Positions 4,247 to 64,000 of a stretch of DNA of 64,000 nt are shown in pieces (the stretch's first letter is position 1; each line of letters opens with the position of its first letter). Origin of the DNA: Patescibacteria group bacterium. GTDB taxonomy: Bacteria > Patescibacteriota > Kazan-3B-28. The notes under the pieces were generated by a model, which had not been told where the DNA came from, did no database searches, and saw only the letters and a list, made by a program, of their open reading frames with translations. Position numbers and translations under genes: made by a program. The DNA lies in the NCBI GenBank assembly GCA_041649135.1, contig JBAZNQ010000001.1:32559-96558 (forward strand), given 5' to 3'.

Positions 4247-4253
4247 CCAAGTC

Positions 4254-14914: not shown

Positions 14915-15328
14915 TTGGTATTATATGCTCATATGACTAAACTTCCTCATCAAGCCAGACGATATGGTTATCGGATTAAAAAACGCTTCCGCGAAGACCC
15001 TTTTTCAGTAATCGTCCTCTATGCGCTATTTTTTAGCTTGTTCTTTCTGATCTTCGCCTTTCGTGGGTTAATCGCCACAGTTTTCATCAAACCGTTGGGT
15101 ATCATCAATCCTTCGACCCAAACGACAACTTTGCCGACTAACCAAACTCCTGCTGACGAGACTAATAGTTTTATTTTAAAGAGCGATCAAAAATATACCG
15201 TCAAAGAAGGCGATACCCTTTACAGCGTTGCGAACGCGCTGGAATTAAATTGGAAAGATTTAGCGACGCTCAATGAAATTCAGCCACCCTACGACTTGGA
15301 AGTTGGTCAGGAATTGAAGCTCCCATAA
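14915..15328 (+). CDS. LysM-domain membrane protein
   Basis: 137 aa with a TM helix and a C-terminal LysM motif (YTVKEGDTLYSVANALELNWKDLATLNEIQPPYDLEVGQELKLP). Confidence 0.7.
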   Translation: MVLYAHMTKLPHQARRYGYRIKKRFREDPFSVIVLYALFFSLFFLIFAFRGLIATVFIKPLGIINPSTQTTTLPTNQTPADETNSFILKSDQKYTVKEGDTLYSVANALELNWKDLATLNEIQPPYDLEVGQELKLP

Positions 15329-15329
15329 C

Positions 15330-15640
15330 AGAATAAATTCTAAATTCGAAATCCTAAATCCTAAACAAATCTTAAATCTTAAATTCTAATGCTTCAAACG
15401 TTTTCTCTGTCATTCCCGCCCTCCTCTTTGTCATTCCCGCGTAGGCGGGAATCCAGCCAAGAACAAAAACATTTTTTCTTTTTTCTGTCTGGATTCCGGA
15501 TCAAGTCCGGAATGACGAATTGTTTATTTTAGTAATTGGTATTTCGTGCTTCGTGCTTGTTTCGTATTTCGTATTTCGTATTTATCTCCCTAGATACTAG
15601 ATACTGAATTGTGTTTCGTGTTTCGGATTTACTTTCAAGA
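15330..15640. repeat. Left arm of a ~310-bp inverted repeat flanking the DUF218 gene
   Basis: Near-identical reverse complement of 16300-16650. Contains a MITE-like GTCATTCC element and tandem (ATTTCGT)n and TAGATAC motifs. Confidence 0.7.
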
Positions 15641-51331: not shown

Positions 51332-51697
51332 ATGTTCAAGTTTGAAAAACTAAATGTGTGGCAGTCTGCTCGAATTTTCATTCAGACAATATATAAACTT
51401 AGTCAGCAATTCCCATCGAGTGAATTATACGGGTTAACATCACAAATTCGTCGTGCAGCCGTATCAGTAGCACTGAATATCGCCGAGGGTTGTAATTCAG
51501 GTTCTAACAAAGAGTTTAATCGGTTTCTCTATCTGTCTTCTCGTTCCCTTGACGAAGTTATTAGCTGCCTGTACCTTGCAATGGACCTAGAATACATTCA
51601 AAAGACAGATTTTGATGTCATCTATCAAGCTGCCGAAAATCTCGGCAAACAAATATCTGGTTTAAAAAGGTTCCTAGCCCAATCCGTCAGTCTATAA
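51332..51697 (+). CDS. Four-helix-bundle protein (TIGR02436; 23S rRNA intervening-sequence protein family)
   Basis: MFKFEKLNVWQSARIFIQTIYKLSQQFPSSELYGLTSQIRRAAVSVALNIAEG. Confidence 0.7.
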   Translation: MFKFEKLNVWQSARIFIQTIYKLSQQFPSSELYGLTSQIRRAAVSVALNIAEGCNSGSNKEFNRFLYLSSRSLDEVISCLYLAMDLEYIQKTDFDVIYQAAENLGKQISGLKRFLAQSVSL

Positions 51698-52182: not shown

Positions 52183-52256
52183 AGGGGCGTCGTTCAGTGG
52201 TAGGACGTGGGTCTCCAAAACCCAAGACGAGTGTCCGATTCACTCCGCCCCTGCCA
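52183..52256 (+). tRNA. tRNA-Trp (CCA). The T-loop reads UCCGAUU (C at position 55), which is non-canonical.
   Basis: Acceptor aggggcg/cgcccct; anticodon stem tgggt/accca, loop ctccaaa. Confidence 0.75.
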
Positions 52257-52299
52257 GCAAAATTATTCGCTTTCACAGTGGATTTTATTTTGATCCAAA

Positions 52300-52896
52300 G
52301 TGGAAGTTAGAACCGTAAGGCGATGTTATACTAAACTTGTGTATGATCAAGTTAAACAGTTTGTAGAAGAATCTTTTAGTGCTGGGGTTAATGAGAAGAG
52401 TATGAAGCACTTTGAGCAAACAGTTGCTTGGCTTAAACGTTTGAAACCCGATGCTGATGAGCCAATGTTAATTGCTGCCTATTCGCACGATATTGCCAGA
52501 GCATTGCGACAAGTAGATTCAAAAACCTTGTTTAAAAATAAAGAACTTAACGATCCCGAGGTGTTGAAAGAGCATCAAGAGCAGGGAGCCCAAATCATGG
52601 GAGAGTTTCTGAGGGATAATGATTACGACGAAGTGTCAGTCAAACGGGTAGAGAACATGATACGCCACCACGAAGAGGGTGGTGATGAGGAATCTAACCT
52701 TCTGATGGATGCTGACAGTCTGAGTTATTTGGAGGTTAATGCCAAAAAACATATTGGACTAATTGATGTTTGGGGAAAGGGAAAAGTTGAACGGAAAATT
52801 GATTGGATGTATAGCAGGATTTCTTCTGCTCGGGCTAAAGAATTTGCCCAGCCATATTACCAAGAAGTGAAGGACTTACTGAACAAGCATTTCTAA
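52300..52896 (+). CDS. HD-domain metal-dependent phosphohydrolase (cassette 1)
   Basis: H...HD motif (KHFEQT...LIAAYSHDIARAL). The stop TAA lies inside the att-like repeat core TTCTAAC. Confidence 0.6.
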   Translation: MEVRTVRRCYTKLVYDQVKQFVEESFSAGVNEKSMKHFEQTVAWLKRLKPDADEPMLIAAYSHDIARALRQVDSKTLFKNKELNDPEVLKEHQEQGAQIMGEFLRDNDYDEVSVKRVENMIRHHEEGGDEESNLLMDADSLSYLEVNAKKHIGLIDVWGKGKVERKIDWMYSRISSARAKEFAQPYYQEVKDLLNKHF

Positions 52897-52969
52897 CTTC
52901 CTCCACCACGGTCTGCCAGTTATTTTATTCGCTCCCAGAGCGGATTATTGTCGGTAGTATAATACAAAC

Positions 52970-53533
52970 ATGGAAAAGCTAACTTTTATTACTGGCAATC
53001 CAGCCAAGGCAAAATATCTCGGTGACTACTTTCATTTTCCAGTTGATCACCTCAAATTAGATTTGCCAGAGATTCAGTCTACGGATTTACAAACAATCGT
53101 TGAAGACAAGGTCAAACGAGCTTTTGCCATTACAAGTACGCCCGTAATAGTTGAGGATGTCTCTCTGATATTTCACGGGATGAAAGCACTCCCTGGTCCA
53201 CTCATTAAATGGTTTCTTGAAACTTTGGGGAATAACGGACTATGTAAATTGGTGGATGGTTTAAATAACCGCAAAGCAACAGCCAAAGTAATGTTCGCAA
53301 TTTGTGATGAGTCAGGTGTTCATACCTTTGCTGGTTCAATGGAAGGCTCTATCTCCGAGTTGCCAAGAGGGGAGATGGGTTTTGGCTGGGATCCGATTTT
53401 TATACCCGACGGTTATGACAAAACTTGGGCGGAAATGACCGATGACGAAAAACACGCTGTCTCCATGCGGAAACAAGCGTTGGAGCAAATGTCAGAGTTC
53501 TTGTCCAAACAAAACGTAATGGTTAATGGATAA
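52970..53533 (+). CDS. Non-canonical purine NTP pyrophosphatase (Ham1/RdgB/ITPase family) (cassette 2)
   Basis: MEKLTFITGNPAKAKYL...GFGWDPIF. Confidence 0.75.
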   Translation: MEKLTFITGNPAKAKYLGDYFHFPVDHLKLDLPEIQSTDLQTIVEDKVKRAFAITSTPVIVEDVSLIFHGMKALPGPLIKWFLETLGNNGLCKLVDGLNNRKATAKVMFAICDESGVHTFAGSMEGSISELPRGEMGFGWDPIFIPDGYDKTWAEMTDDEKHAVSMRKQALEQMSEFLSKQNVMVNG

Positions 53534-54020
53534 TCAGCATCCTCAAAAACAATTTATGGAAGCCGCTATAGCAGAGGCAACCGAAGCTCGCGATAACGGT
53601 GATTATGCCATCGGAGCGATTATTGTTCATGATGGTCAAGTTATTTCCAGAGCCACCAACCGATCTAAGGTCGACCAAGACGCAACCCAGCACGCCGAGA
53701 TAGTCGCAATTCGTCAGGCGTCGCAAATGCTCGGGTCTCGCTATTTGGAGGAGTGCATTTTGTACACTACCCACGAACCCTGCCCTATGTGTGCTGCCGC
53801 TGTTGTTTGGGCAAAAATGAGAGGTGTTGTATCGGGGGCTCGCATGGAAGACATGACGGACTATCGCATCAAGAATGGCAACGATGAATGGAAATGGCGG
53901 ACTATCAGCATTCCTGCCCGAGAGGTGTTAGCAAAAGGGGAACCAAAGGTTATGCTAATAGAGGAGTTTATGCGGGATGAGTGTAGGCAGCTGTTTCACG
54001 GTGCCGAATCAAATTCCTAA
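53526..54020 (+). CDS. CDA-fold zinc deaminase, TadA-like (tRNA adenosine or nucleoside deaminase) (cassette 2; overlaps the Ham1 gene by 8 nt)
   Basis: HAEIVAIRQA...THEPCPMCAAAVVWAKMRGVVSGA. Confidence 0.7.
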   Translation: MDNQHPQKQFMEAAIAEATEARDNGDYAIGAIIVHDGQVISRATNRSKVDQDATQHAEIVAIRQASQMLGSRYLEECILYTTHEPCPMCAAAVVWAKMRGVVSGARMEDMTDYRIKNGNDEWKWRTISIPAREVLAKGEPKVMLIEEFMRDECRQLFHGAESNS

Positions 54021-54074
54021 CTTCCTCCGCCACGGTTTCTGCCAACCGCTTATACTCTCTACAGATAAAAGATT

Positions 54075-54626
54075 ATGAAAAACGACATTAGACCCATATA
54101 TAGTGAGTTGCGAGGATATCTTAGTGTCGCTCCACTCGCAGATGGATACTTGTTTGGCAGCGAAGCTAATAGATTTAGTCATCAACTAAACGTCACCATC
54201 GATGAATTAAACGAGGCTACCAAGAGCAACTATGACAAATTTAAAGTGGTACTTGAACATGACAGCGGTAGCCCAGCCCTTATGATTAGTGATTACCGCA
54301 ATAGGTTGAGCGGTCTGATCTATAAGATCCAAGGAGAATATTTTGCAGATGAACAGCAGTCGGGAAGTGGGCCCAGTACTATTATTAATGCCAACCAAAG
54401 TCAGGCTCAAAGCCAACAGCAAAGCCTTATAGTCGACTTGGTTTTCTTTGTTGCTGAGAAAAAAGCGGAGTATCAGGATGGAACACCTGAGAAGACATTC
54501 CTAGATAAGTTTGGGGATGCGCTCAAAACGGCCAAGGGAGTTCAGGATATAATTCAGCTTATCTTCACTATAGCGAGTCAGGTTGGCCTTCAGTTGGAAC
54601 AGCTTAAGAACTTATTTGGGGGATAA
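54075..54626 (+). CDS. Hypothetical protein (cassette 3)
   Basis: 183-aa ORF with no recognisable motif. Confidence 0.4.
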   Translation: MKNDIRPIYSELRGYLSVAPLADGYLFGSEANRFSHQLNVTIDELNEATKSNYDKFKVVLEHDSGSPALMISDYRNRLSGLIYKIQGEYFADEQQSGSGPSTIINANQSQAQSQQQSLIVDLVFFVAEKKAEYQDGTPEKTFLDKFGDALKTAKGVQDIIQLIFTIASQVGLQLEQLKNLFGG

Positions 54627-54632
54627 TACGTA

Positions 54633-54974
54633 ATGGAAATTACCTACGAAGATTTTGAAAAAGTAGATATCCGACTTGGTCGGGTTATTGATGCTCAAGA
54701 TTATCCAGAAGCCAAAAAGCCTGCTTTCAAGTTGAAGATAGACTTTGGCCCAGAGATTGGCATCAAGAGTTCCAGCGTTCAAGCTGTCGGTGCTCACACT
54801 AAAGAAGAACTTAATGGCATGCTGGTTTGTTGTGTAGTTAATTTCCCACCTAAGCGAATTGGCGATTTCACATCCGAAGTACTGACTCTTGGTTTTAAGA
54901 ACGCTGACGGTATCGGCTGGGTACTGATTACTCCAGCCAAGCAGTCGGTTAATATCGGAGATAAACTTCAATAA
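54633..54974 (+). CDS. tRNA-binding domain protein (CsaA/Trbp111/EMAP-like OB fold) (cassette 3)
   Basis: DIRLGRVIDAQDYPEAKKPAFKLKIDFGPEIG... Confidence 0.65.
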   Translation: MEITYEDFEKVDIRLGRVIDAQDYPEAKKPAFKLKIDFGPEIGIKSSSVQAVGAHTKEELNGMLVCCVVNFPPKRIGDFTSEVLTLGFKNADGIGWVLITPAKQSVNIGDKLQ

Positions 54975-54975
54975 T

Positions 54976-55710
54976 ATGAATAAAATTGCATTAGTAACGG
55001 GCTCGTCTAAAGGTATTGGTATGGCAATTGCCATAGAACTATCATCCAGGGGATTTGATGTAATCATCAATAATAGTCACGAAAATGCTGAAGGCCAAGC
55101 CGTCGTTGATGAAATTAACCAACACGGTGGCAGAGCTGTCTATATGCCAGCCGATGTCTCTAATATTAATGATGTTATTAAACTCAAAACCGAAATCGAA
55201 GAACAGTTTGGACACCTAGACGTTCTTATCAATAATGCTGGAATCGTCAGAAAGGAATATCCAGGCCAAGCTAACTGGGAGGATTGGGATAGGGTGTTTG
55301 CTGTAAATGTGAGAGGTATGGCTCAATGTATCTATGAACTATCTCCAGTCATGCCCGAGGGTTCAGCGATAGTGAACATTGTATCTGTGTGGGGGCTTGA
55401 GCTCCCTGCATATGACGCCAACGCTTACGCTGCTTCTAAGGCAGCCGTAGTTAGTCTCACCAAGACCCTCGCTCTCCAGTTGGCTCCTAAGATTAGAGTC
55501 AATGCAGTAGCTCCTAGCGTCGTGGCAATTGAACAACCCCACGAAACTAATCCAGATACCGTTAAATGGGTGCAGGACAATATGCCCCTTGGACGCAAAG
55601 CCACACCTCAAGAGATTGCTAAATTAGTGGCTTTTTTGGTGTCAGATGATGCTAGCTTTATTATCGGTGATTGTATAAAAATTGACGGTGGATTAACTTT
55701 GAAGATCTAG
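54976..55710 (+). CDS. Short-chain dehydrogenase/reductase (FabG-like SDR) (cassette 3)
   Basis: TGSSKGIG Rossmann motif, NNAG, catalytic YAASK. Confidence 0.8.
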   Translation: MNKIALVTGSSKGIGMAIAIELSSRGFDVIINNSHENAEGQAVVDEINQHGGRAVYMPADVSNINDVIKLKTEIEEQFGHLDVLINNAGIVRKEYPGQANWEDWDRVFAVNVRGMAQCIYELSPVMPEGSAIVNIVSVWGLELPAYDANAYAASKAAVVSLTKTLALQLAPKIRVNAVAPSVVAIEQPHETNPDTVKWVQDNMPLGRKATPQEIAKLVAFLVSDDASFIIGDCIKIDGGLTLKI

Positions 55711-55875
55711 CTAACACACTGAGGCAATTGTTGCAGAATGACAGTTCTAACTTCCTCCACCACGGTCTGCCAGATAAATTATCCGCTATGACAGCGAATA
55801 TTTTTGTGTGGGCAACGCGTAGTTAGAACTTTGCCCAAGAAAAAAGCTCATTATTTACAGTCGCGAGCGAACGAC

Positions 55876-56841
55876 TTACCACCGCTTATAGAGAGCCCCC
55901 GTCTTTTGCAACAGCCAGAATGCTAACATTCCAGTCGCAAGAAAGAACGCTACTCCACCGAAGGTGGTGTTGAGCAATGGATGGGGATGAAACCACCATG
56001 TCATTACTGCGAGCAACAACCAGACATCGAACATGTGCTTTGATGTGCGGTGTTCATAGTCCATGTTCGAGTTCCAGAATCGAGCAGCTCCATGCACTAC
56101 GCCTCTAGTCATGCCCCATCCAAAAAACAAGAACAGTGGTAACAACATGTATGTCTCGTGCCATCTAGCCGAAAGCCACATGCCTATCACTGTTGGCCAC
56201 GGCATCAAGCAGGCAATCCAACATACGGCTCGAAACGCCTGAGGCTCGCCAACCAGTAGTGGCAGAGTACGCTTATTACCGTTTCTATCGGCTTCCATGT
56301 CTTCGATGTCCTTTAGCGTTTCGCGTATGACCAATGCCATTACAACGCTCAGGAATACACCTAACACTAGGGGCTTCGAAGAGCCTGCGACAGGGAACAG
56401 CATGAGTACTGGGCTGGAGGCTGTCACGGCTACCAGAACATTGTTGACTGGATACCAAGGTCGGATCCAGTTGTACAACCATATCCCTACACCGATTTGC
56501 GACAGCAAGAGGGATGACTGCCAAATGGCTAAACCTTGATTGTCTGAACGATGTAGAAACAACCAGCTGACAGCAATCACCACCAGAACACACCACTGTA
56601 TGACGGCAAGTTGGTATAGTTTGGCATGTTCGAGGTCGGTCATTTCTCGGCTTTTACCCCGATCCTCATTGCGGTCAAATAAATCGTTCCAGAGCATAGT
56701 CGCTCCACAAATCCATGCCTGAATAATGGCCAAGACCACAATTCCGACACCAAACTTGTAAAGCTGGACAGACATTCCGACCAACAGCCCTGCCGCTAGT
56801 AAGCTGACAGGCACTCTGTATCGTAAAAGTACATTCCGCAT
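55876..56841 (-). CDS. UbiA-family prenyltransferase, membrane (cassette 4, reverse orientation)
   Basis: NDLFDRNED (NDxxDxxxD), multiple TM segments. A strong SD aaggaggtg lies upstream on the minus strand. Confidence 0.65.
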   Translation of the reverse strand: MRNVLLRYRVPVSLLAAGLLVGMSVQLYKFGVGIVVLAIIQAWICGATMLWNDLFDRNEDRGKSREMTDLEHAKLYQLAVIQWCVLVVIAVSWLFLHRSDNQGLAIWQSSLLLSQIGVGIWLYNWIRPWYPVNNVLVAVTASSPVLMLFPVAGSSKPLVLGVFLSVVMALVIRETLKDIEDMEADRNGNKRTLPLLVGEPQAFRAVCWIACLMPWPTVIGMWLSARWHETYMLLPLFLFFGWGMTRGVVHGAARFWNSNMDYEHRTSKHMFDVWLLLAVMTWWFHPHPLLNTTFGGVAFFLATGMLAFWLLQKTGALYKRW

Positions 56842-56922
56842 TATTCACCTCCTTTACTGTATTTGCGGATGTTTCATTATATGGGCCGACGAGTAGATTA
56901 GTCCACAGGGATCGGTCAAGGG

Positions 56923-56951
56923 TTGACGCAACCCAGTTATCGTCCAATAAT
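56923..56951 (+). promoter_or_regulatory. Candidate sigma70 promoter TTGACG-17 nt-AATAAT for the 56985 gene
   Basis: Spacing and hexamers visible; SD aaaggagg before the ATG. Confidence 0.35.
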
Positions 56952-56984
56952 ACAGCCATTCAGTGACAACCAAAGGAGGTCAAA

Positions 56985-57377
56985 ATGTCGCTGTCACGCA
57001 CCTTGGCGGTCTTAGTGTATATTGCTCATCACCTCTGGGTCGGGGCAGCCATGCTGGCGTCCCTCACTTGGTTGGTGGATCACTTCAACTTGGTCTGGAT
57101 TAGTCCCCAGATTGTCAGCTTTGCGACTCGTTGGATGGCAAGTAGCATGGTGGTAATGATCATTGGTCCAGTGTTGTGTTGGGATGGGACATCTCACTAT
57201 CACTGTGCCCCACTATATTTACGCAGAGCCATTCAGGTCGCGTCTGGTGACAAAGTTGGGGGACTGTTTACCCCTCTTTTCAGCCATATACTTCCGTGGT
57301 CGGATGTCCACATAGCCTTAGCACTTAACCTATTCTTGTTAGGGGTGTGGCTCAGACTATTGTTGATAGAGCACTAA
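56985..57377 (+). CDS. Small membrane protein, hypothetical (cassette 4); followed by a terminator at 57398-57430
   Basis: 130 aa; 4 hydrophobic segments. Confidence 0.45.
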   Translation: MSLSRTLAVLVYIAHHLWVGAAMLASLTWLVDHFNLVWISPQIVSFATRWMASSMVVMIIGPVLCWDGTSHYHCAPLYLRRAIQVASGDKVGGLFTPLFSHILPWSDVHIALALNLFLLGVWLRLLLIEH

Positions 57378-57640
57378 GATGCAATTGTATTCGTCGCTTA
57401 CGGCCCCCATCTGGGGGCCTATCATTTTAATTTAATGGTAAACTTACAGGTATAGGACTGGTGGATTGGGTTAAAGCCGTTCTAACTTCCTCTACCAAGG
57501 TCTGCCAATAAAATTAACCGCTTTCATAACGGATTTTATTTTCAGCCACAGTAGAAGTTAGAACTTGAAGGTGTTACAATATCCCCATCAAACTAGAGGG
57601 GGCTAGCGCTCCTTCAAACCTCAACAAAGGAGGGTGGGCT

Positions 57641-58756
57641 ATGTACCACCACATCGAAAACGAACACTGCCCTATGTCGCACGGGTTTTGTTACCGCGAT
57701 GGAGTGCTGTATGTCACAGTTTTGGAAGCCTATCTTCCAGAACTACTAGAACGGCTACCTCAAGCGGTGGCCAATCTAGTATGCCGTCATCAGGACAAGC
57801 AACGGCTGGGAGAGTTCGGTGGGCTAGACGACTTAAATGGCTATCTCACGGAACCCGTCGGTGGCTATTGCGGTTTTGGCAGATTTGGCGAATCTCTGGC
57901 ATTCTTTCCATCTCCAGAATCTGGCTGGATTGAATTTCGCTACACTATACCAGGTAGTTATGAACAGGCTGTTCCTGGAATGGCGTCGCTGAACTTTTTG
58001 CTGTTCGTGCTGGCCTGGCTCACCAAGCCAGACGGTATTGCCTCGCCTCGAGGCAATCAGCTCGTAATCCGCGAGGGTGGTTCGTATAGCGTCGCGAAAG
58101 AGGTAGGCGATTGGCTTTGGTCGCAACCCATCGTCAATCTTCCCATCGCCCAAGCCATCGCTGAAGTCTATGCGTCTCTACATAGCCAGCTAACTCCCGA
58201 AGAGATTCACCTTGGCCTAGTTAGACCATCTGCCACAGACGTATTGTCTAAGCCTGGCGGTGCAACTGCCAATATCTACGGGCGGTCCATTCATCTTAAC
58301 TACCCTGGCGGTGCTGCCACTGGGCTAGATGCCGAGATGGCTCGCGAGAATCGGGGCTACCGCGTAGTGCCTCACAATGTTGATGTGCCCGCCCAAGATC
58401 TCGGGCTGTTGGTGGGGATGGCGAAGCTTCACGAACTGGTTGAAGCCGGTATCGATTCACAATGGATGAAGTACTACAGCATGTTCGCCACTCAAACCTT
58501 CGTTGAGCCTAACCCCGAAGAAATACCCATCAATCATCCCACCGAGGCTGGTGTCTACGAAGTCCGAGGCGAAGAGTACCTCACGATTGAGGTGTACCAA
58601 CACCCCGTTCTCGGACTTAGCGTCTGGTGCGAGGATGCCGATCGCGGAGTAAATGCGGATACCGAAGACGATGTAGCTGGCCATATCCGAGCCGATATGG
58701 CGGGCATCAACTTCGTGCGACGGCTACGCCCCCTGCAGTCAGGAGGACAAAACTAG
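57641..58756 (+). CDS. Hypothetical 371-aa protein, GC-rich (cassette 5), paralogous to 58996-59862
   Basis: SD aaggaggg. The C-terminal block VPHNVDVPAQDLGLLVGMAKLHELVEAG is shared with the next cassette. A terminator follows. Confidence 0.55.
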   Translation: MYHHIENEHCPMSHGFCYRDGVLYVTVLEAYLPELLERLPQAVANLVCRHQDKQRLGEFGGLDDLNGYLTEPVGGYCGFGRFGESLAFFPSPESGWIEFRYTIPGSYEQAVPGMASLNFLLFVLAWLTKPDGIASPRGNQLVIREGGSYSVAKEVGDWLWSQPIVNLPIAQAIAEVYASLHSQLTPEEIHLGLVRPSATDVLSKPGGATANIYGRSIHLNYPGGAATGLDAEMARENRGYRVVPHNVDVPAQDLGLLVGMAKLHELVEAGIDSQWMKYYSMFATQTFVEPNPEEIPINHPTEAGVYEVRGEEYLTIEVYQHPVLGLSVWCEDADRGVNADTEDDVAGHIRADMAGINFVRRLRPLQSGGQN

Positions 58757-58995
58757 AACCTACGGTCAGAATGCGACTGACTACCATCGGATGGCGAACC
58801 TACGGGTTCGCCTCCTTTAATTTAATGTTAAACTTACAGATATAGGGCAGGTGGACTGGATAAGAATTCTTCTAACTTCCTCCACCAAGGTCTGCCAATA
58901 AAATTAACCGCTTTCATAACGGATTTTATTTTCAGCCACAGTAGAAGTTAGAACTTGAAGGTGTTACAATATCCCCATCAAACTAGAGGGGGCTA

Positions 58996-59862
58996 GTGCT
59001 CCTTCAAACTCTGGAGTCTAACCACATGACAGATGATAATCTGAGCCTTTTTCACATCAGTCGTCAAAATTGCCCAGCGAATTATCGTCTGGCAATCGTG
59101 GACCCTAGGGTCATCACCGTGCTAGTCCACCGTAGCGTTTGGGAGTCGTTCTGCGAAGACACCAATCGTCGACATAATCCATTGTCACCCATGATAGGCG
59201 GCAATAATATCTTGGGCGAGGAAGTACCATTTATCGCCCCAGGAAGTATCAACGCGCCGTTTGGATATCATGACGGCGTGACGAGGATAGCCTCCGAGGA
59301 TCCACAGTGGGAAACCCTTTGTATTAAGCTGCCAATCGAGAAGAGTGCGAGTGGCGGGAAGGGTAACCACATGTTGGCTTTGGCCAACACTAGAGCAGTA
59401 CTGGTGTCCTTGATGGGGTCTCATTCGACCGCCCAAGAACCCCAGCTGTTGGCCATCTGGCAGATGTCGCTGTGGAACCCAGATTGCAGCATCGGCTGCA
59501 GGATGTCTCAAGCAATTGTTGCCTGGCTTACGGCTTTGACTGTAGAGCAAAGGGCCCGAATTGAAGCTGAAGTCTCGTTAGCGATGCGGACTGCTTTCAC
59601 AGTGATTCGCGACGGTGTCGTTTCACCGATCAGCAAGTCTGCTAGTGGTAAGGTCGGTATGCATCTATCTCATGGGGACAGTATATATTTGTACTGCTAT
59701 GGGACTAATTCTGGCTCTTTGGGCGCAGAATCCATCTCCAAGGCGATGTGTGGCGATCTCTTGCCACACAATATGGATAGCCCATACCAAGCGCTAGTCA
59801 CTGTCGCGGGGTTAGCCAAGCTGTACGAGATTGCCCGTGTGGCACTCTACCCATCAGAGTAG
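58996..59862 (+). CDS. Hypothetical 288-aa protein, GC-rich (cassette 6), paralog of 57641-58756
   Basis: Shared block LPHNMDSPYQALVTVAGLAKLYEIARVA. Terminator at 59883-59915. Confidence 0.5.
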   Translation: MLLQTLESNHMTDDNLSLFHISRQNCPANYRLAIVDPRVITVLVHRSVWESFCEDTNRRHNPLSPMIGGNNILGEEVPFIAPGSINAPFGYHDGVTRIASEDPQWETLCIKLPIEKSASGGKGNHMLALANTRAVLVSLMGSHSTAQEPQLLAIWQMSLWNPDCSIGCRMSQAIVAWLTALTVEQRARIEAEVSLAMRTAFTVIRDGVVSPISKSASGKVGMHLSHGDSIYLYCYGTNSGSLGAESISKAMCGDLLPHNMDSPYQALVTVAGLAKLYEIARVALYPSE

Positions 59863-60094
59863 GCCAAAACTGATCTCGAATTGGGCGGACATTCCCTTGT
59901 CCGCCCGCTTTTAATTTAATGGTAAACTTACAGGTGTGGGACTGGTGGATTGAGTCACAACCTTCCTAACTTCCTCCACTCTAGCCGCGTCCCACGACCA
60001 GCGGGCAGGCCACAATCTGCCAACCGCTACAATGGCAAAGCGACCGTAGCGTTTCAAAAATCCAAGATAAAACATTAATTCTTAACTAATCATT

Positions 60095-60562
60095 ATGTCG
60101 GATATTACATTCAAGAAAGTAACGATTGAAGATGTTGATAAACTTTTAGAGGTTGAAAAAACTGCCGTAAGTTCAAAAACATATTTTTCAATTACAGACA
60201 GGGAAGAGGCAAAAAAAGAAATCGAGAATAATGAAGTATATTTTATTATTAAGCATAATAAAATCGTTGGGACTACAGAATATCAAATCAAAAATCCCAA
60301 CCATGCATATCTTGGAGGACTTGTCATTATCCCGAGTTTTCAGGGGCAAGGTATTGCGCGCAAAGCGGCAGAATTTAAGCTCGAAAAGCTAAAGAATATA
60401 AAACGAATCGATCTTACAGCGCACCCTCGGAATAATAAGATAATTGTGCTTTATCTGTCGCTCGGATTCCATATTGAATCATGGAAAGATAATTATTTTG
60501 GAGATGGTGAGCCAAGATTAATACTGGCATTAAACAACTCACATTCTGATGAATGCGGATAA
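60095..60562 (+). CDS. GNAT family N-acetyltransferase (cassette 7, AT-rich)
   Basis: GGLVIIPSFQGQGIARKA acetyl-CoA binding motif. Confidence 0.65.
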   Translation: MSDITFKKVTIEDVDKLLEVEKTAVSSKTYFSITDREEAKKEIENNEVYFIIKHNKIVGTTEYQIKNPNHAYLGGLVIIPSFQGQGIARKAAEFKLEKLKNIKRIDLTAHPRNNKIIVLYLSLGFHIESWKDNYFGDGEPRLILALNNSHSDECG

Positions 60563-60634
60563 AGTAAGTTAAAAACGAGCAAAAAGATCGGAATCGAGCT
60601 GTTCTGCCAAAAGAAAACTTAGGAATTACATAAA

Positions 60635-61246
60635 ATGCCGCATAATAAAGATATGCTGGCTATCCTTAGTATTGCGGTCGTAGCATTTATCGCGACAAAT
60701 CTCGACGACACTCTTCTGCTTATAGGTTTTTTCTCTCACAAATCATATAAACCCATCCAGGTCGTCATCGGCCAATATCTCGGCATCGGCTTGCTTGTGT
60801 TTGTAAGCGCAATAGGCGCAGCCATTTCACTCTCGATCGCTCCGGCATATGTCGGGTTGCTCGGTTTTTTGCCTATAGTGATTGGAGCTAAAGAATTTTG
60901 GCATACTTTTATTACCGGTGATGCACAGGCAGAGAATACAAAAATCGCTTCTTCTGGAAAAATTCTTTCAATTGCTGCTGTCACCATTGCCAACGGAGGG
61001 GACAATATCGGCATATATATTCCTTTGTTTGCCACCATGACTTCCGCTCAATTTATAGTCACAGTGGTAATGTTTGCCGTGATGACTGGGCTGTTATGTT
61101 TGGCAGGATATTGGCTGGTATACCACAAAAGATTCGGTCGCCACATACAATATTGGGGGCATCGGATGCTGCCGTTTGTGCTAATTGGGCTCGGAGTATA
61201 TATTCTGTGGCACAACGGGAGTACTTCTTTGATTAAAGGGTACTAG
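60635..61246 (+). CDS. CadD-family cadmium/metal resistance transporter-like membrane protein (cassette 7)
   Basis: MPHNKDMLAILSIAVVAFIATNLDDTLLLIGFF; 5-6 TM. The stop is immediately followed by a variant att-like repeat. Confidence 0.55.
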   Translation: MPHNKDMLAILSIAVVAFIATNLDDTLLLIGFFSHKSYKPIQVVIGQYLGIGLLVFVSAIGAAISLSIAPAYVGLLGFLPIVIGAKEFWHTFITGDAQAENTKIASSGKILSIAAVTIANGGDNIGIYIPLFATMTSAQFIVTVVMFAVMTGLLCLAGYWLVYHKRFGRHIQYWGHRMLPFVLIGLGVYILWHNGSTSLIKGY

Positions 61247-61365
61247 AGCCCTAACCTCCTCCACCCTAGCCACGTCCCGCGATCGGCGGGCAGACCACAG
61301 TCTATTAGTATTGGTTTTCGACTCTTACGGTACAATAGAAGCAGTTATACTCGTTTATTTTTCTT

Positions 61366-61803
61366 ATGTCAAAACTCTTCATAGTTTCATCTCTTGGCTT
61401 AATGGTATGTTGCGGATTGTGTTTAAGCGGCTGTCAAAAAACCAATTCCACCAATCAGTCTCAAAGTTCTACCCCCAAAATTTATACCGATCAATCAAAA
61501 TTCGCCTCTGCTTTTACTAAATGTGAAGTTAGTGAGTTACAAATTCCTTTTGGTAGTGATGCGACCTACTCTATTAAAATGTTAGGGATTACTGACGGTA
61601 AATGTGGTTATCAGGTACAGGTTCGTAATAATACTCAAGGTAAGGTAACTAGTGGTCCAGCGGACTTGACTTGTAACATGCCAACAACGTCACTTAGTCA
61701 AAACGCTCTCGGTCATCTCTTTGGGTATGATAAAGCCACCGGCATGGAAACCACAAAAGCCGAACAGGATCAACTAGAGGCAAAGTATTGTCAATCAAGT
61801 TAA
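61366..61803 (+). CDS. Lipoprotein, hypothetical
   Basis: Signal peptide with lipobox LSGC. Confidence 0.5.
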   Translation: MSKLFIVSSLGLMVCCGLCLSGCQKTNSTNQSQSSTPKIYTDQSKFASAFTKCEVSELQIPFGSDATYSIKMLGITDGKCGYQVQVRNNTQGKVTSGPADLTCNMPTTSLSQNALGHLFGYDKATGMETTKAEQDQLEAKYCQSS

Positions 61804-61837
61804 GACCTTCCGGTAGGCTCCATAATCAATTCGCCCC

Positions 61838-62161
61838 ATGCAACATTACTCTCAAGAATTCGCCAATAGGTGGTCTCAACTGACATTGCCCCAACAGCTG
61901 GGTAATGTTGGGAGTGAAGTTAGCCGGATGCTCAAATGGCGAGACAAAGACCCCATCATTGCCGAACGGGCTTTTGAACGAATGCTGGAACTTATTGATT
62001 TGACTCTTCAAAATCAGACCAACGGTCCTCGTTTGCGAGAAATTGCCCGTGCTCGGGAAGTTTTGGTTCAGACGTGGTTGGAACGATCCACTTCGGATAA
62101 TGCGGAATGGGCATCTTTGAATCGGTACTTTTTCTATTTCGCCTTACTCGGTAATGCTTAA
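61838..62161 (+). CDS. Hypothetical small alpha-helical protein
   Basis: 107-aa ORF. Confidence 0.35.
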   Translation: MQHYSQEFANRWSQLTLPQQLGNVGSEVSRMLKWRDKDPIIAERAFERMLELIDLTLQNQTNGPRLREIARAREVLVQTWLERSTSDNAEWASLNRYFFYFALLGNA

Positions 62162-62221
62162 CATTTTTGTCCAATCCATCTCCCAAAAGATCTCTTACTA
62201 TACAACTCTAAATCTACTCAC

Positions 62222-63043
62222 ATGAGAAGAACACCCGAAGCTGGTGGACCACCAGAACCTCCCTCAACACCAGAAACATCACAGGAAAAGGAACATTTTG
62301 AACCAACCATTCGGATTGATCTTGTTCGGCATGGGGAAGCAGAATATAGCGATGAACTAGAGCAGCAAGTCGAAGCACAGGGCTACCCCTATGATAAACT
62401 CTTCCCAGCGTCCAAAACTACAGCAGAGCTTCGAGGAACGCGGGCTGGCAAGGAGGGTCGTTTAACCAAAGAGGGGAGAGCACAACTGACCATGTCCATG
62501 GAACATCTAGCCAAAAAGATTGATCCAGCCAATGAAGTAATCATAGTGTTGTCTAGCCCACAATTAAGAGCGGAGGAATCGGCAGGGGTCGTCATTGATG
62601 CCCTAAAACAACAAGGCGTTGATATTCTGGGAGCTAGGGAACATCTAGACCTTATCGATATGCAAAGACCTTGGATTGGGATATTGCAATTTCTTAAACA
62701 GAGCCCGTCTGGTGAATCTCCATTCAAGTACTGGCTACAAATGTCAGAGGAAGAGCTTCAAGAGGCAGATATTGAAGGGATAAAAAGCATTGAAGATCGG
62801 ACAGGCCACTTTATAAAACTTATTCAAGCACTAGCTCGACTTAGACGAGTGGGGTGGGGCCTAGATAAAAAGACCCTTCGCGTTATTGCTGTTACTCATG
62901 ATATTAATCTTATAGCTATCGCTGGTTGCGTTCCGGGCCTTAGCAAAAAAGAACTTAATGATGTTAAGCATGCTGAAATTGTCGAACTAGGTATGGACGA
63001 TCGCGGTGACGCTCAATTAATAACTGATGATGAAACAGCCTAA
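62222..63043 (+). CDS. Histidine phosphatase superfamily (phosphoglycerate-mutase-like) protein
   Basis: RHG catalytic motif DLVRHGEAEY. Confidence 0.6.
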   Translation: MRRTPEAGGPPEPPSTPETSQEKEHFEPTIRIDLVRHGEAEYSDELEQQVEAQGYPYDKLFPASKTTAELRGTRAGKEGRLTKEGRAQLTMSMEHLAKKIDPANEVIIVLSSPQLRAEESAGVVIDALKQQGVDILGAREHLDLIDMQRPWIGILQFLKQSPSGESPFKYWLQMSEEELQEADIEGIKSIEDRTGHFIKLIQALARLRRVGWGLDKKTLRVIAVTHDINLIAIAGCVPGLSKKELNDVKHAEIVELGMDDRGDAQLITDDETA

Positions 63044-63083
63044 GTATGTTCTAATTTTTTCTGGTATCGATTCCAACGCTTTG

Positions 63084-64000
63084 ATGACTGATCTCATGAT
63101 CCACGGACCCTACGGCCGTTTCCCGGCCGTTTTTTTGGTAGACGAAGGGCTTTGGCAATTGTACTTACCATCCGAGTTTTTACATCAACTTTCCGAAGAG
63201 GGGTACATGAACGCCTTACAAAAAGATTTTGTGGTCGGCTTTAACAAAGATGCGCAAAAAATGATTCAGGAAATCAGGAATTTCTACCAGTCTTATGACA
63301 AAGCCAATTCATTATCCCGTGAGAATTTTATAGACTATTTTAATGCTATGACGGATTTGGTAGTGCGTTTTTTTGAGCTCTATACCATTACTGAATTTTT
63401 CTATTCTGGGAAAATTGATCAAGAAATCTACCAATGGGCGAAACAAACTCATCCTGCTCACATTTCGCTGACAGTCAATAAATTACTTAATGGCACATAC
63501 CAGGGCGATGTCTCGAGTGTGATCAAGCAATTGGCTAATTTTCTTCAGGAAATTGGTAGGATACGTTTCGAGCTAAGAGAGACCATCAATCAACTCTACA
63601 TTGGTGACGGCGTTTATCTCGCCACTATGCGGTCTTTCGCTCGTCTTACTAATCGTGACGACTTTTCCGAATTAACTATACAAGAAATTCGCGATGTGAT
63701 TTTTGGTAAGGATGTGCCAGACGGGAAACATCGTCGCAAACTACTCGCAGTCCAACAAGAGGGTGGCGAATGGCGGTTCATGTCGAATGATCGAGCTCAT
63801 CAAATATTGTCTAGTGTTCAAAGATCTATCGGATCTCTTGAGGAACTGCATGGGCACACAGCTAGCCCCGGCAAAGCGCAGGGCATTGCGAGAATCTATT
63901 CGCTTAGTCGCTCCCCTGATTTTGATAGATTCAACCAAGGAAATATTTTAGTAGCTAGTACTACCGGTCCAGAGTTTATGCCTGCCATCCAGCGAGCCGG
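63084..64000 (+). CDS. Partial (5' portion) protein with PEP-utilising-enzyme mobile (swivel) domain; continues beyond the window
   Basis: Open frame from ATG 63084 to the window end. C-terminal visible motif HGHTASPGKAQGIARIY...GNILVASTTGPEFMPAIQRA resembles PpsA/RPH swivel domains. Not in the ORF track because it has no stop within the window. Confidence 0.45.
   Translation, partial: MTDLMIHGPYGRFPAVFLVDEGLWQLYLPSEFLHQLSEEGYMNALQKDFVVGFNKDAQKMIQEIRNFYQSYDKANSLSRENFIDYFNAMTDLVVRFFELYTITEFFYSGKIDQEIYQWAKQTHPAHISLTVNKLLNGTYQGDVSSVIKQLANFLQEIGRIRFELRETINQLYIGDGVYLATMRSFARLTNRDDFSELTIQEIRDVIFGKDVPDGKHRRKLLAVQQEGGEWRFMSNDRAHQILSSVQRSIGSLEELHGHTASPGKAQGIARIYSLSRSPDFDRFNQGNILVASTTGPEFMPAIQRA

What the first reader, a model, noticed from the sequence alone, without database searches (positions are those of the whole stretch)
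52250..61310. Cassette array bounded by att-like palindromic repeats, anchored at the 3' end of tRNA-Trp
The 9 kb after tRNA-Trp is punctuated by at least 8 related sequences at 52250, 52891, 54015, 55744, 57480, 58869, 59964 and 61249. Most begin (G)TTCTAACTTCCTCCACCA(C/A)GGTCTGCCA; 59964 and 61249 are divergent variants. The three full-length copies end with the complementary core GTTAGAAC ~86 bp later, forming imperfect palindromes. Copies 57480-57565 and 58869-58954 are almost perfectly self-complementary. The first copy is simply the tRNA-Trp 3' terminus (…CCCCTGCCA) plus its 60-bp downstream flank (…GTTAGAAC), and every later copy retains CTGCCA and the downstream flank. So each cassette boundary regenerates the tRNA 3' end, as expected for repeated site-specific integration. 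Several cassette ORFs have their stop codon inside the repeat core (TTC-TAA-C at 52894 and 54018). That placement, and the palindromic sites, are classic features of integron attC sites. Cassettes carry 1-3 genes: an HD hydrolase; Ham1 with a TadA-like deaminase; a tRNA-binding protein with an SDR; a UbiA prenyltransferase in reverse orientation; two GC-rich paralogs of unknown function; and GNAT with CadD. They mix AT-rich and GC-rich (~57%) compositions and often carry strong Shine-Dalgarno sites that are absent from host genes. The last two boundaries (59964, 61249) are a variant with a 36-nt GC-rich insertion. No integrase or recombinase ORF is visible in the window. This could be a CALIN-like cluster, a sedentary integron whose intI lies elsewhere, or an unrecognised recombination system.
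Basis: partly seen in the sequence, partly recalled or inferred. Interest (0 to 1): 0.88.

Follow-up and report, generated by a model that had tools for sequence, protein, structure and literature searches.

The report
Serine-recombinase gene cassettes stacked after tRNA-Trp
Downstream of the tRNA-Trp gene of a tiny candidate-phyla-radiation (Kazan group) bacterium lies a real stack of at least seven small, recombinase-less gene cassettes. Each was inserted exactly at the tRNA's CCA end and each ends in the same 26-base arm. It looks like an integron, but the junctions fit the attachment sites of a tRNA-Trp-specific large serine recombinase family, not integron attC sites.

Summary
The repeats are real. 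The motif CTAACTTCCTCCACC(..)CTGCCA occurs 7 times in 52.9-61.3 kb and nowhere else in the window. tRNA-Trp ends in the same CTGCCA and is followed by the complementary arm GTTAGAAC.

Related Kazan-group genomes show presence/absence polymorphism. In some, tRNA-Trp is followed directly by a conserved gene. In others, unrelated cargo sits between the tRNA's CCA and the identical 26-nt arm, after which the same conserved gene resumes. So insertion happens at CTGCCA, not at G|TT of the palindrome's outer arm. This, plus the lack of any IntI, rejects the integron/CALIN reading.

In three other CPR genomes a large serine recombinase (LSR) gene abuts the tRNA-Trp 3' end. One such 5.8-kb element ends distally in the same arm type (GTTCTAACATCCTCCAC..CTGCCA). 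LSR elements and cassettes also share a GTTNNAAC box at a fixed distance from CCA (+60 and +49 to +51).

Best reading: an SCC-like composite array of LSR-less mini-cassettes, mobilised in trans, with the newest next to the tRNA. No LSR is present in the window or in the 10 kb beyond its right end, and mobility is inferred, not shown. I found no published description.

The parts
52183..52256 (+). tRNA-Trp (CCA anticodon, encoded CCA end). Its last 6 nt, CTGCCA, form the insertion point (attB left half).
   Evidence: ARAGORN; Rfam tRNA 59.6 bits. Occupied versus empty sites.
52257..52313 (+). P' module of cassette 1. It holds a conserved 25-nt arm (GCAAAATTATTCGCTTTCACAGTGG), which forms a weak hairpin followed by a T-run, and the GTTAGAAC box at +50 to +57 (52306-52313).
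   Evidence: (D2).
52257..52918 (+). Cassette 1: HD/DUF4202 gene (52345-52896) and P arm (52893-52918, CTAACTTCCTCCACCACGGTCTGCCA).
52919..54044 (+). Cassette 2: truncated P' (hairpin kept, box lost), a TATAAT-like element, Ham1 (52970-53533), a CMP/dCMP-type deaminase (53526-54020), and P arm 54017-54044 (2-nt insertion).
54045..55772 (+). Cassette 3: minimal P' (ACCGCT + TATACT), an unknown 183-aa protein, a tRNA_bind domain protein, an SDR, and P arm 55747-55772.
55773..57507 (+). Cassette 4: P' with box 55822-55829, UbiA prenyltransferase on the minus strand (55876-56841), a 130-aa membrane protein (56985-57377), terminator 57402-57419, conserved 54-nt block 'D4' (57425-57478), and P arm 57482-57507.
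   Evidence: (D4).
57508..58897 (+). Cassette 5: P' with box 57557-57564, orphan 371-aa gene (57641-58756), terminator 58793-58812, D4 block 58815-58868, and P arm 58872-58897.
58898..60022 (+). Cassette 6: P' with box 58947-58954, a 278-aa distant paralogue of the 371-aa protein (59026-59862), terminator 59882-59907, D4 block 59909-59962, and a variant P arm (59966-60022) in which a 37-nt GC-rich segment replaces the 6-nt CACGGT before CTGCCA.
60023..61307 (+). Cassette 7: minimal P' (ACCGCT + TACAAT), GNAT (60095-60562), CadD (60635-61246), and a degenerate variant P arm (61251-61307) that has lost CTGCCA.
61308..64000 (+). Continuation of the variable region (lipoprotein, 107-aa protein, histidine phosphatase, PEP-utilising enzyme) with no recognisable junctions. 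The variable region runs on to about window-equivalent 68.4 kb, where the conserved reversed ABC2/ABC genes begin. In relatives those genes sit next to tRNA-Trp.

Best explanation
The 9 kb after tRNA-Trp is a tandem array of at least seven small integrative cassettes (0.66-1.7 kb, 1-3 genes each) that carry no recombinase. It is part of a 16-kb variable region.

Each cassette has four parts:
- a P' module: a conserved arm of about 25 nt, RYAAAATTAYYCGCT..AGCGG, which forms a hairpin plus T-run that can terminate the tRNA or the preceding cassette. Four of the units also carry a GTTAGAAC box exactly 50 nt after CCA;
- a -10-like element, which may be its own promoter;
- the cargo genes;
- a 26-nt P arm, CTAACTTCCTCCACCACGGTCTGCCA, whose end copies the CTGCCA terminus of tRNA-Trp.

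Cassettes enter by conservative site-specific recombination with the crossover in or beside CTGCCA. The tRNA stays intact, and the P arm of one cassette abuts the P' of the next, which gives the 86-nt palindromic junctions.

The enzyme is most likely a large serine recombinase (LSR) of a CPR-wide family that targets the tRNA-Trp 3' end. It would be supplied in trans by larger elements that use the same site, as ccr-less SCC modules are mobilised by Ccr.

The native sequence to the right of the target varies freely between genomes. The tRNA-side junction should therefore remain a usable target, so new cassettes would insert next to the tRNA and older ones would decay distally.

Shown here: the structure, the insertion point, the presence/absence polymorphism, and the LSR link to the site and arm. 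Inferred: trans-mobilisation, current activity, and the order of insertion.
For: 1. The motif is non-random and confined to the array.

2. Genome and metagenome scans found the exact 26-mer in 7 other distinct contigs, with unrelated sequence on both sides. Wherever the contig reaches far enough upstream, tRNA-Trp lies 0.5-2.5 kb upstream on the same strand.

3. Empty versus occupied sites:
- L018 and L019 have tRNA-Trp CTGCCA followed at once by a 60-aa membrane-protein gene. L006 has a 2.46-kb cassette (ArsR-type genes) and the P arm, then the same gene and spacer.
- L017 has tRNA-Trp next to the reversed ABC2 genes. L011 has a 0.57-kb cassette in between. The window has 16.2 kb in between.

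4. The same 335-aa cassette occurs in L009 and L010 with different neighbours. Homology starts at CCA|G(C/T)AAAATAG and ends at CTGCCAACAG.

5. LSR link:
- LSR genes of one family (49% identical to the L015 enzyme) abut and overlap the tRNA-Trp 3' end in L015, L022 and L025, in different genomic contexts.
- The 5.8-kb L025 element ends distally in GTTCTAACATCCTCCACGATGGCCTGCCA, a P arm of the window's type.
- L021 shows P arm-CTGCCA-LSR 3' end, which is the attP configuration.
- An LSR remnant lies in the L002 array and an LSR lies 0.8 kb from the tRNA in L016.

6. A GTTNNAAC box lies at +60 in all 4 LSR elements, although the 19 codons in between are not conserved. It lies at +49 to +51 in 7 cassette P' modules (two spacer types) from 4 genomes.

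7. Cassettes 4-6 carry Shine-Dalgarno sites and higher GC than the host, which has almost no such sites. This points to foreign origin.

8. Junction decay increases distally: c6 and c7 are variant or degenerate, and a D4 remnant lies at about 67.5 kb.
Against: - No LSR or other recombinase is present in the 64-kb window (within the ORFs searched) or among the genes called in the 10 kb beyond its right end. The rest of the genome could not be read.
- Canonical LSRs recombine only attP with attB. Tandem accretion therefore needs relaxed target requirements, as reported for Ccr.
- No clear dyad symmetry surrounds the crossover in the cassette junctions: at best 10 of 22 positions, which is near chance after choosing the best offset.
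- The cassette-type box is inverted and 10 nt closer to CCA than the LSR-type box.
- In L015 the block ending in the D4 plus P arm belongs to a separate last cassette, not to the LSR element itself.
- Three samples of the same species (99.4-100% identical) show the same array wherever they overlap it, so no recent movement is seen.
- The exact identity of the 26-mer across contigs is partly an ascertainment effect of the search pattern. Copies found by other routes differ at 2-4 positions.
Confidence: 0.6

Rival explanations
1. The architecture and insertion point are the same, but the enzyme is a tyrosine recombinase (a phage-type integrase or a Xer-like host enzyme) that uses CTGCCA(R) as a 6-7 bp overlap region. 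The LSR elements would merely share the hotspot.
For: - A 6-7 nt identity (CTGCCA, or CTGCCAA) is shared by the tRNA end and every window P arm, which is the size of a tyrosine-recombinase overlap.
- L009 has a 225-nt insert bounded by 21-nt direct repeats of the tRNA 3' end, the classic tyrosine-integrase signature.
- L025 has a 40-nt direct repeat at both ends of its element.
- Tandem insertion is easy for tyrosine integrases.
Against: - No tyrosine recombinase gene was seen at any locus that was annotated or searched.
- In other arrays the shared core shrinks to CCA (CCCGCCA, CCTACCA, CTGGCCA).
- The P arm type is found at the far end of an LSR element, and LSR genes overlap the site in three genomes.
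Confidence: 0.12
2. The array is a graveyard. Large LSR (or other) elements integrated serially at tRNA-Trp and each was later deleted down to a stub. The 'cassettes' would never have been units of mobility and would be immobile now.
For: - Distal junctions are degenerate (c6, c7, and the D4 remnant).
- Copies c1, c2 and c6 lack the right box.
- The array is identical in three samples of the species, as far as those contigs overlap it.
- An LSR pseudogene lies in the L002 array.
Against: - Cassette P' modules are a conserved family of their own: a 25-nt arm, plus the box at +49 to +51 in 4 genomes. They are not LSR gene remnants; tblastn finds none in the array.
- Single complete cassettes of 0.57-2.5 kb, with both arms intact, occur in L011, L006 and L009.
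- The same cassette sits in two different arrays.
- ORFs are intact, and each unit carries a -10-like element just upstream of its first gene.
Confidence: 0.15
3. The region is an integron-like array (CALIN or sedentary integron). The 86-nt palindromes would be attC sites recombined by an IntI encoded elsewhere, with crossover at G|TT of the right arm.
For: - Three sites are imperfect palindromes of attC-like length.
- Their outer boxes, TTCTAAC and GTTAGAA, match RYYYAAC and GTTRRRY at 6 of 7 positions.
- One arm carries a 3-nt bulge.
- Two stop codons lie in the left box.
Against: - The cassette boundary lies at the tRNA CCA, 50 nt away from the right box.
- The native spacer is at the distal junction, the opposite of the integron prediction.
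- Distal sites in single-cassette genomes are left arms only.
- 4 of 7 window sites have no right arm.
- No IntI was found in the window or at any related locus.
- The left arm is also the terminal arm of an LSR element.
Confidence: 0.03
4. The repeats are not recombination sites. They would be conserved terminator/promoter or RNA-processing punctuation (a tRNA-like 3' end mimic) between ordinary chromosomal genes.
For: - P' has a hairpin plus T-run, and a -10-like element follows it.
- The P arm ends in GCCA, like a tRNA.
Against: - Presence/absence polymorphism occurs exactly at these sequences, with unrelated cargo in every genome.
- There is no Rfam hit and no conserved RNA helix (the helix was checked by eye on c4, c5 and L015).
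- Promoter-like sites are not enriched: 15 found against 15.2 expected.
Confidence: 0.05

Closest known systems
Staphylococcal cassette chromosome (SCCmec, ACME, pseudo-SCC) composite islands
   Same: - Large serine recombinases (CcrAB/CcrC) integrate elements at one site at the 3' end of a conserved gene.
- Modules stack in tandem, each bounded by short direct repeats.
- Modules without recombinase genes (for example ACME) are mobilised by Ccr supplied from a neighbour (PMC7029739).
   Different: - The target here is the CCA end of a tRNA gene rather than rlmH/orfX.
- The units are 10-50 times smaller (0.6-2.5 kb).
- Each unit carries a terminator-like hairpin and a -10-like element that may be a promoter.
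- The arm conserved among units is 26 nt long.
- The host is a CPR bacterium.
- No recombinase lies inside or beside this particular array.
Integron cassette arrays and CALINs (IntI with attC)
   Same: - A one-sided, ordered stack of small, mostly one-gene to three-gene cassettes next to a fixed platform site.
- Imperfect palindromic junctions with TAAC...GTTA-type outer boxes.
- A uniform site type with very diverse cargo.
- The newest cassette is probably nearest the platform.
   Different: - The boundary lies in the middle of the palindrome (CTGCCA), not at G|TT of R'.
- There is no IntI.
- Terminal sites are half sites.
- Cassettes carry -10-like elements, so they may have their own promoters.
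- The candidate enzyme is a serine recombinase, not a tyrosine recombinase, and nothing requires a folded single strand.
tRNA-gene-targeting genomic islands and prophages, including tandem 'additive' islands (established knowledge, not tested here)
   Same: Insertion occurs at a tRNA 3' end with the tRNA end regenerated. Repeated copies of the tRNA terminus mark successive insertions.
   Different: - Only 6 nt of the tRNA are repeated. The rest of the arm is a distinct conserved sequence.
- The units are gene-cassette sized and lack integrases.
- The associated integrase family is serine type, not tyrosine type.
Serine-integrase prophages (phiC31, Bxb1, A118 type)
   Same: - The LSR gene sits at the edge of the element next to attP.
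- The arm conserved on the P side (26-29 nt) is about the length of an attP half-site.
- No long identity between partner sites is needed.
   Different: - The target is a tRNA end.
- The LSR reading frame runs across the crossover.
- An extra GTTNNAAC box lies 50-60 nt from the crossover.
- The sites tolerate tandem stacking.

Membership tests
Integron / CALIN | An integron integrase (IntI, tyrosine recombinase) next to the array (integron), or attC sites recognisable by the attC model (CALIN) | tested here: not met
   No recombinase was found in the window (the Pfam scans did not cover the ribosomal-protein and rpoBC operons) or among the genes called in the 10 kb beyond its right end. No tyrosine recombinase was seen at the related loci that were annotated.
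Integron / CALIN | attC architecture: R''(RYYYAAC)-L''...L'-R'(GTTRRRY) imperfect palindrome of 57-141 nt with extrahelical bases | tested here: inconclusive
   Three of 8 sites (c3, c4, c5) are 86-nt imperfect palindromes. Their outer boxes match the consensus at 6 of 7 positions and one arm has a 3-nt bulge. The other sites are half sites. Whether the bulges correspond to the canonical extrahelical bases could not be judged.
Integron / CALIN | Cassette boundary (crossover) at G|TT of R', with the last cassette followed by a complete attC | tested here: not met
   Occupied versus empty sites (L006 against L018/L019, L011 against L017) put the boundary right after the tRNA CCA. The native spacer lies at the distal junction, and distal sites are left arms only.
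Integron / CALIN | A hit with the IntegronFinder attC covariance model | not testable with these tools
   The model is not in Rfam. The Rfam scans returned only tRNAs, apart from one sub-threshold chance-level match at E = 0.8.
LSR-integrated elements / SCC-like composite island | A large serine recombinase (Resolvase + Recombinase + Zn_ribbon_recom) linked to the site | tested here: inconclusive
   Not met in the window. Met in relatives: LSR genes abut tRNA-Trp in L015, L022 and L025, sit near it in L016, lie next to a P arm in L021, and survive as a remnant in L002.
LSR-integrated elements / SCC-like composite island | Integration at one specific chromosomal site, with a short repeat at both ends and the target gene left intact | tested here: met
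   CTGCCA is present at the tRNA end and at the end of every unit, and the tRNA is intact. Empty sites are seen in L017-L019.
LSR-integrated elements / SCC-like composite island | The same attachment arm on recombinase-carrying elements and on recombinase-less modules | tested here: met
   The L025 LSR element ends in GTTCTAACATCCTCCACGATGGCCTGCCA, against the window's GTTCTAACTTCCTCCACCACGGTCTGCCA. The box lies at +60 or +49 to +51.
LSR-integrated elements / SCC-like composite island | Demonstrated excision or integration (circles, in vitro recombination) | not testable with these tools
   No reads are available and no biochemistry can be done. The only evidence is comparative: the same cassette occurs in two arrays.
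Classical tRNA-targeting island (tyrosine integrase) | A tyrosine integrase gene and direct repeats of at least 15 nt of the tRNA 3' end | tested here: not met
   There is no integrase. In the window only 6 nt of the tRNA are repeated. A 21-nt repeat exists only around the 225-nt insert in L009/L001.
IS200/IS605-type single-strand transposons (HUH TnpA) | A TnpA (Y1 HUH) gene and subterminal hairpins at both ends | tested here: not met
   No such gene was found in the window or the annotated loci. The P-arm end has no hairpin of its own.

The most novel reading that the evidence does not exclude
Kazan-group and related CPR bacteria possess a true gene-cassette capture platform that is a functional analogue of the integron but built from different parts.

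- The CCA end of tRNA-Trp plays the role of attI.
- A 26-nt P arm plus a 25-nt P' arm play the role of attC.
- A trans-acting large serine recombinase plays the role of IntI.
- Cassettes bring their own terminator and, probably, their own promoter.
- A cassette pool is shared across lineages, including genes from donors that use Shine-Dalgarno sites.
Probability: 0.35. Interest if true: 0.85.

Novelty: new variant of a known kind. Interest (0 to 1): 0.7.

Why it matters
CPR bacteria have tiny genomes, and few of their mobile elements have been characterised. A dedicated, ordered acquisition site that stacks ready-to-express mini-cassettes would be a main route by which they gain accessory functions. 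Here the cargo includes nucleotide-pool sanitising enzymes, metal resistance, an acetyltransferase and orphan genes.

It would also be a second, independently evolved 'cassette array' design, with a serine recombinase at a tRNA end where the integron uses a tyrosine recombinase and folded attC sites.

A serine integrase family that recognises a short arm and the nearly universal tRNA-Trp terminus may also interest people who build integration tools.

Tried and rejected
- **Integron crossover at the right arm.** Rejected by the position of the native spacer.
- **tRNA-like minihelix formed by the D4 block and the P arm.** A 12-bp helix can be drawn for c4, but it is not kept by compensating changes in c5, c6 or L015. 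There is no Rfam hit.
- **D4 block as a copy of the tRNA-Trp promoter plus 5' end.** The local alignment score is 19-21 against a null of 16.5 +/- 2.7, which is not significant. It may simply share a TGGTAAA-type -10 element.
- **Dyad symmetry around the crossover, as expected for serine-integrase sites.** The best result was 10 of 22 positions, with no consistent centre.
- **Right box as a -35 element.** The spacing to the -10-like hexamers is only 11-14 nt, and the promoter scan shows no enrichment.
- **Viral contigs.** No match was found to the motif or to the LSR.
- **Homologues of the 371-aa cargo protein.** Only the protein itself was found (NCBI MAG, locus tag WC553_00550).
- **Literature.** Five searches were run on integrons or serine recombinases in Patescibacteria/CPR and at tRNA-Trp. 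None found a description.
- **attC covariance model from real attC sites.** I did not build one, because the collections give no attC annotation and a small model would not have been decisive.

Full report
**1. The observation**

The window comes from a candidate-phyla-radiation bacterium of the Kazan group.
- The closest named relatives by NusG, and by the motif scan, are 'candidate division Kazan bacterium' MAGs.
- The source contig is ENA ERZ27247363 k141_2225525, 420 kb long.
- tRNA-Trp lies at 52183-52256. It follows secE, nusG, a 23S-rRNA-IVP protein gene and rpmG.

The motif is real and confined to the array.
- CTAACTTCCTCCACC occurs seven times with at most one mismatch between 52893 and 61251, all on the + strand.
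- The only other window match needs three mismatches. Chance expectation is 1.24, and none of 100 shuffles reaches the observed count.
- In five copies the motif continues to CTGCCA 26-28 nt after its start. In one copy (c6) a 37-nt GC-rich segment replaces the 6-nt CACGGT before CTGCCA. The last copy (c7) carries a related segment of the same length and has lost CTGCCA.
- tRNA-Trp ends in the same CTGCCA.

I call the 26-nt left arm 'P' and the sequence that follows CTGCCA 'P''.
- The 57 nt after the tRNA are 80% identical to the sequence that follows CTGCCA in copies c4 and c5.
- They end in GTTAGAAC, the complement of the GTTCTAAC that begins the P arm.
- Only c3, c4 and c5 have both arms.
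- Copies c4 and c5 fold well as single strands (dG -16.6 kcal/mol, z -7.0). Copy c3 folds weakly (z -2.5). The one-armed sites fold no better than shuffles.

**2. Cargo**

The units carry the following genes:
- an HD/DUF4202 protein;
- Ham1 plus a CMP/dCMP-type deaminase;
- an unknown protein plus a tRNA_bind protein plus an SDR;
- UbiA (reversed) plus a small membrane protein;
- an orphan 371-aa protein;
- its distant 278-aa paralogue (30% identity over 102 residues);
- GNAT plus CadD.

Of the 19 host genes checked, 18 have no Shine-Dalgarno sequence and one (rpoA) has a bare GGAG.
- The UbiA, 130-aa and 371-aa genes have AAAGGAGG. The 278-aa gene has only a weak GGAG.
- These four genes are 49-54% GC against 45% for the window.
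- This suggests foreign origin.

**3. Relatives**

Scans of the genome and metagenome collections for the 26-mer (three degenerate positions and a 0-2 nt gap allowed) gave ten loci from seven distinct contigs.
- In all of them the sequence on both sides of the 26-mer is unrelated to the window and to each other.
- Where the contig reaches far enough, tRNA-Trp lies upstream on the same strand: 0.5 kb in L011, 1.1 kb in L001/L009, and 2.5 kb in L006.
- Each of these has the same layout: tRNA-CTGCCA, a 45-nt spacer with a hairpin, GTGGAG-GTTAGAAC, cargo, the P arm, then unrelated flank.
- The tRNA-Trp genes of these genomes are only 72-81% identical to the window's, yet the arm is identical. That identity is partly imposed by the search pattern. 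Copies found by other routes differ at 2-4 positions (L009 second copy, L015, L025).

**4. Where insertion happens**

Syntenic tRNA-Trp loci were fetched through NusG homologues.

The small membrane-protein gene marks one empty site.
- In L018 and L019 the tRNA's CTGCCA is followed at once by a 60-aa membrane-protein gene. In L018 the spacer is ATCAATATAATAATCTATCGCGGAGGTAAGTATG.
- In L006 the same gene (88% identical protein) and the same spacer (ATTAATATATAATCTATCGTGGAGGTAAATATG) follow the CTGCCA of the P arm.
- The tRNA in L006 is instead followed by a different 40-nt spacer plus the right arm.

The reversed ABC2/ABC genes mark another.
- In L017 the tRNA is followed directly by the reversed ABC2/ABC genes.
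- In L011 the same genes follow a 0.57-kb cassette.
- In the window's genome they lie 16.2 kb after the tRNA.

One cassette occurs in two arrays. A 335-aa cassette is present in L009 and L010 with different neighbours. Homology starts at CCA|G(C/T)AAAATAG and ends at CTGCCAACAG.

Two conclusions follow.
- Insertions therefore begin immediately after the tRNA's CCA and end with a CTGCCA of their own.
- An integron-type crossover at G|TT of the right arm predicts the native spacer on the tRNA side and a complete palindrome at the distal end. Both predictions fail.

**5. The recombinase**

No recombinase is encoded in the window, within the ORFs searched, or among the genes called in the 10 kb beyond its right end. 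Related genomes do link one to the site.

- In L015 a 551-aa large serine recombinase (Resolvase plus Zn_ribbon_recom) lies convergent with tRNA-Trp. Its reading frame runs through TGG, the complement of CCA, into the tRNA.
- Family members 49% identical to it do the same in L022 and L025. There tRNA-Trp sits in quite different neighbourhoods.
- The 5.8-kb L025 element ends distally in AGTTCTAACATCCTCCACGATGGCCTGCCA, a P arm of the window's type. That arm is followed by the same 34 nt that follow the tRNA.
- A 1.8-kb contig (L021, LSR 59% identical) shows a second arm type joined through CTGCCA to the LSR 3' end. This is the attP configuration. The same arm type is a junction in the L010 and L007 arrays and sits beside an LSR remnant in L002.
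- All four LSR elements carry GGTTCTAACC starting exactly 59 nt after CCA, although the 19 codons in between are unrelated in sequence.
- Seven cassette-type P' modules, from four genomes and with two spacer types, carry GTTAGAAC at +49 to +51.
- LSR-type and cassette-type P' also share an AAATTA motif within the first 12 nt.

**6. Mechanism proposed**

The cassettes are recombinase-less units carrying the two arms of this LSR family's attachment site. They integrate at the tRNA-Trp CCA end when the enzyme is supplied in trans.

- The native sequence to the right of the target is unrelated among L017, L018, L019, L011, L009 and L025. The right half of the target therefore seems not to be read.
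- That would leave the tRNA|P' junction usable for the next insertion.
- This explains tandem stacking, P-P' palindromic junctions, and a gradient of decay away from the tRNA (c6, c7, and the D4 remnant at about 67.5 kb).
- The P' hairpin plus T-run would terminate the tRNA or the preceding unit, and -10-like elements follow it. That part is inference, because the consensus scan shows no enrichment.

**7. Weaknesses**

- The LSR is not seen in this genome fragment.
- Canonical serine integrases do not use attL as a target.
- There is no clear dyad symmetry at the crossover.
- The cassette box is inverted and 10 nt nearer to CCA than the LSR box.
- The D4-plus-P end in L015 belongs to a separate last cassette, because an internal junction lies at about 19.3 kb.
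- Three samples of the species carry the same array wherever they overlap it.
- Current mobility is therefore unproven. A tyrosine recombinase acting on the 6-7 nt CTGCCA(R) core, or a graveyard of decayed elements, remain possible.

**8. Comparison with known systems**

- The nearest known system is the staphylococcal SCC composite island. There serine recombinases (Ccr) act at one site at the 3' end of a conserved gene. Modules stack between short direct repeats, and ccr-less modules are mobilised in trans (PMC7029739).
- The resemblance to integrons is functional (an ordered stack of small cassettes at a platform site) and superficial in sequence (TAAC...GTTA boxes). Membership fails on the boundary test and on IntI.
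- I found no published description of such arrays, or of tRNA-Trp-specific serine recombinases in CPR bacteria.

**9. Verdict**

The integron label is rejected. The finding is a new variant of a known kind (site-specific integrative cassette arrays). It is of good interest because of its miniature, integron-like organisation in a CPR genome.

Noticed in passing
L015 11159-11236; L022 11591-11623; L025 11582-11614: The LSR reading frames run across the attachment point. The Trp codon TGG is the complement of the tRNA's CCA, so the last 11-25 residues are encoded by the complement of tRNA-Trp when the element is integrated. In the attP form (L021) they are encoded by the complement of the P arm. 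Integration therefore swaps the enzyme's C-terminal tail.
   Followed up: partly
L001 3530-3734 (minus strand) = L009 about 4107-4311: A GC-rich, hairpin-rich insert of 204 nt lies between tRNA-Trp and a 21-nt direct repeat of its 3' end (GGATTCCTTCCGCCCCTGCCA); start-to-start the two copies are 225 nt apart. It has no ORF and no Rfam hit. The repeat plus the following right arm is 93% identical to L006, whereas the tRNAs themselves are 74% identical.
   Followed up: partly
L016 5676-5810; L015 about 15000-15140: Both LSR-bearing elements carry a long (about 125-150 nt) near-perfect hairpin. It is followed by ..ACCACCACGAGATCTGCCCC / ..ACGCATGAGGTCTGCCCG, which resembles the 3' part of the P arm (CCACCACGGTCTGCC). 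It could be an origin, a second site or an RNA.
   Followed up: no
window 57425-57478, 58815-58868, 59909-59962; L015 20496-20549; L023 about 15330-15370: A conserved 54-nt block ('D4', TTTTAATTTAATGGTAAACTTACAGGTATAGGACTGGTGGATTGGGTTAAAGCC) always follows a strong terminator and precedes the P arm in the GC-rich cassettes. It is about 90% identical in another genome. It contains a TGGTAAA element like the tRNA-Trp promoter, but the overall similarity to that promoter is not significant.
   Followed up: partly
window 51332-51697: A 23S-rRNA-intervening-sequence protein gene (PF05635, bAvd-like) sits between nusG and rpmG here and in L018. It is absent from the same position in L014-L017, L019 and L020, so it is another small variable insert in a conserved operon.
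   Followed up: no
L017 11010-11771: In this relative the conserved tRNA-Trp promoter (GGTTTATGGTAAAAT) is separated from the tRNA by a 219-aa ORF. Something has therefore inserted upstream of the tRNA as well.
   Followed up: no
window 190-51912 (19 host genes checked): Eighteen of the 19 host genes checked, including ribosomal protein and RNA polymerase genes, have no Shine-Dalgarno sequence, and one (rpoA) has a bare GGAG. Many have a TTAACTTTTCA-like motif upstream instead (for example before secY, S13 and the GT4 gene).
   Followed up: no
window 12483-13481: A 332-aa ORF with no Pfam match lies inside a cluster of seven tRNA genes, between tRNA-Gly and tRNA-Cys.
   Followed up: no
L008 (second junction near the 3' end of the 1.5-kb contig); L010 1-210; L007 oriented 1650-1910: Other arm types also end cassettes in these arrays. 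Examples are ..GGCAGGCAGGCTCAATCACGGTCTGCCA, ..ATCTCCTTTGGTGGGACCATAGAGCCATATGCCCTGCCA and ..GGGTTCCCTCTACCCCTACCA. The last closely resembles the 3' end of another lineage's tRNA-Trp (L020). The GC-rich segments in c6 and c7 share GGCAGRCCACAR with these arms.
   Followed up: partly
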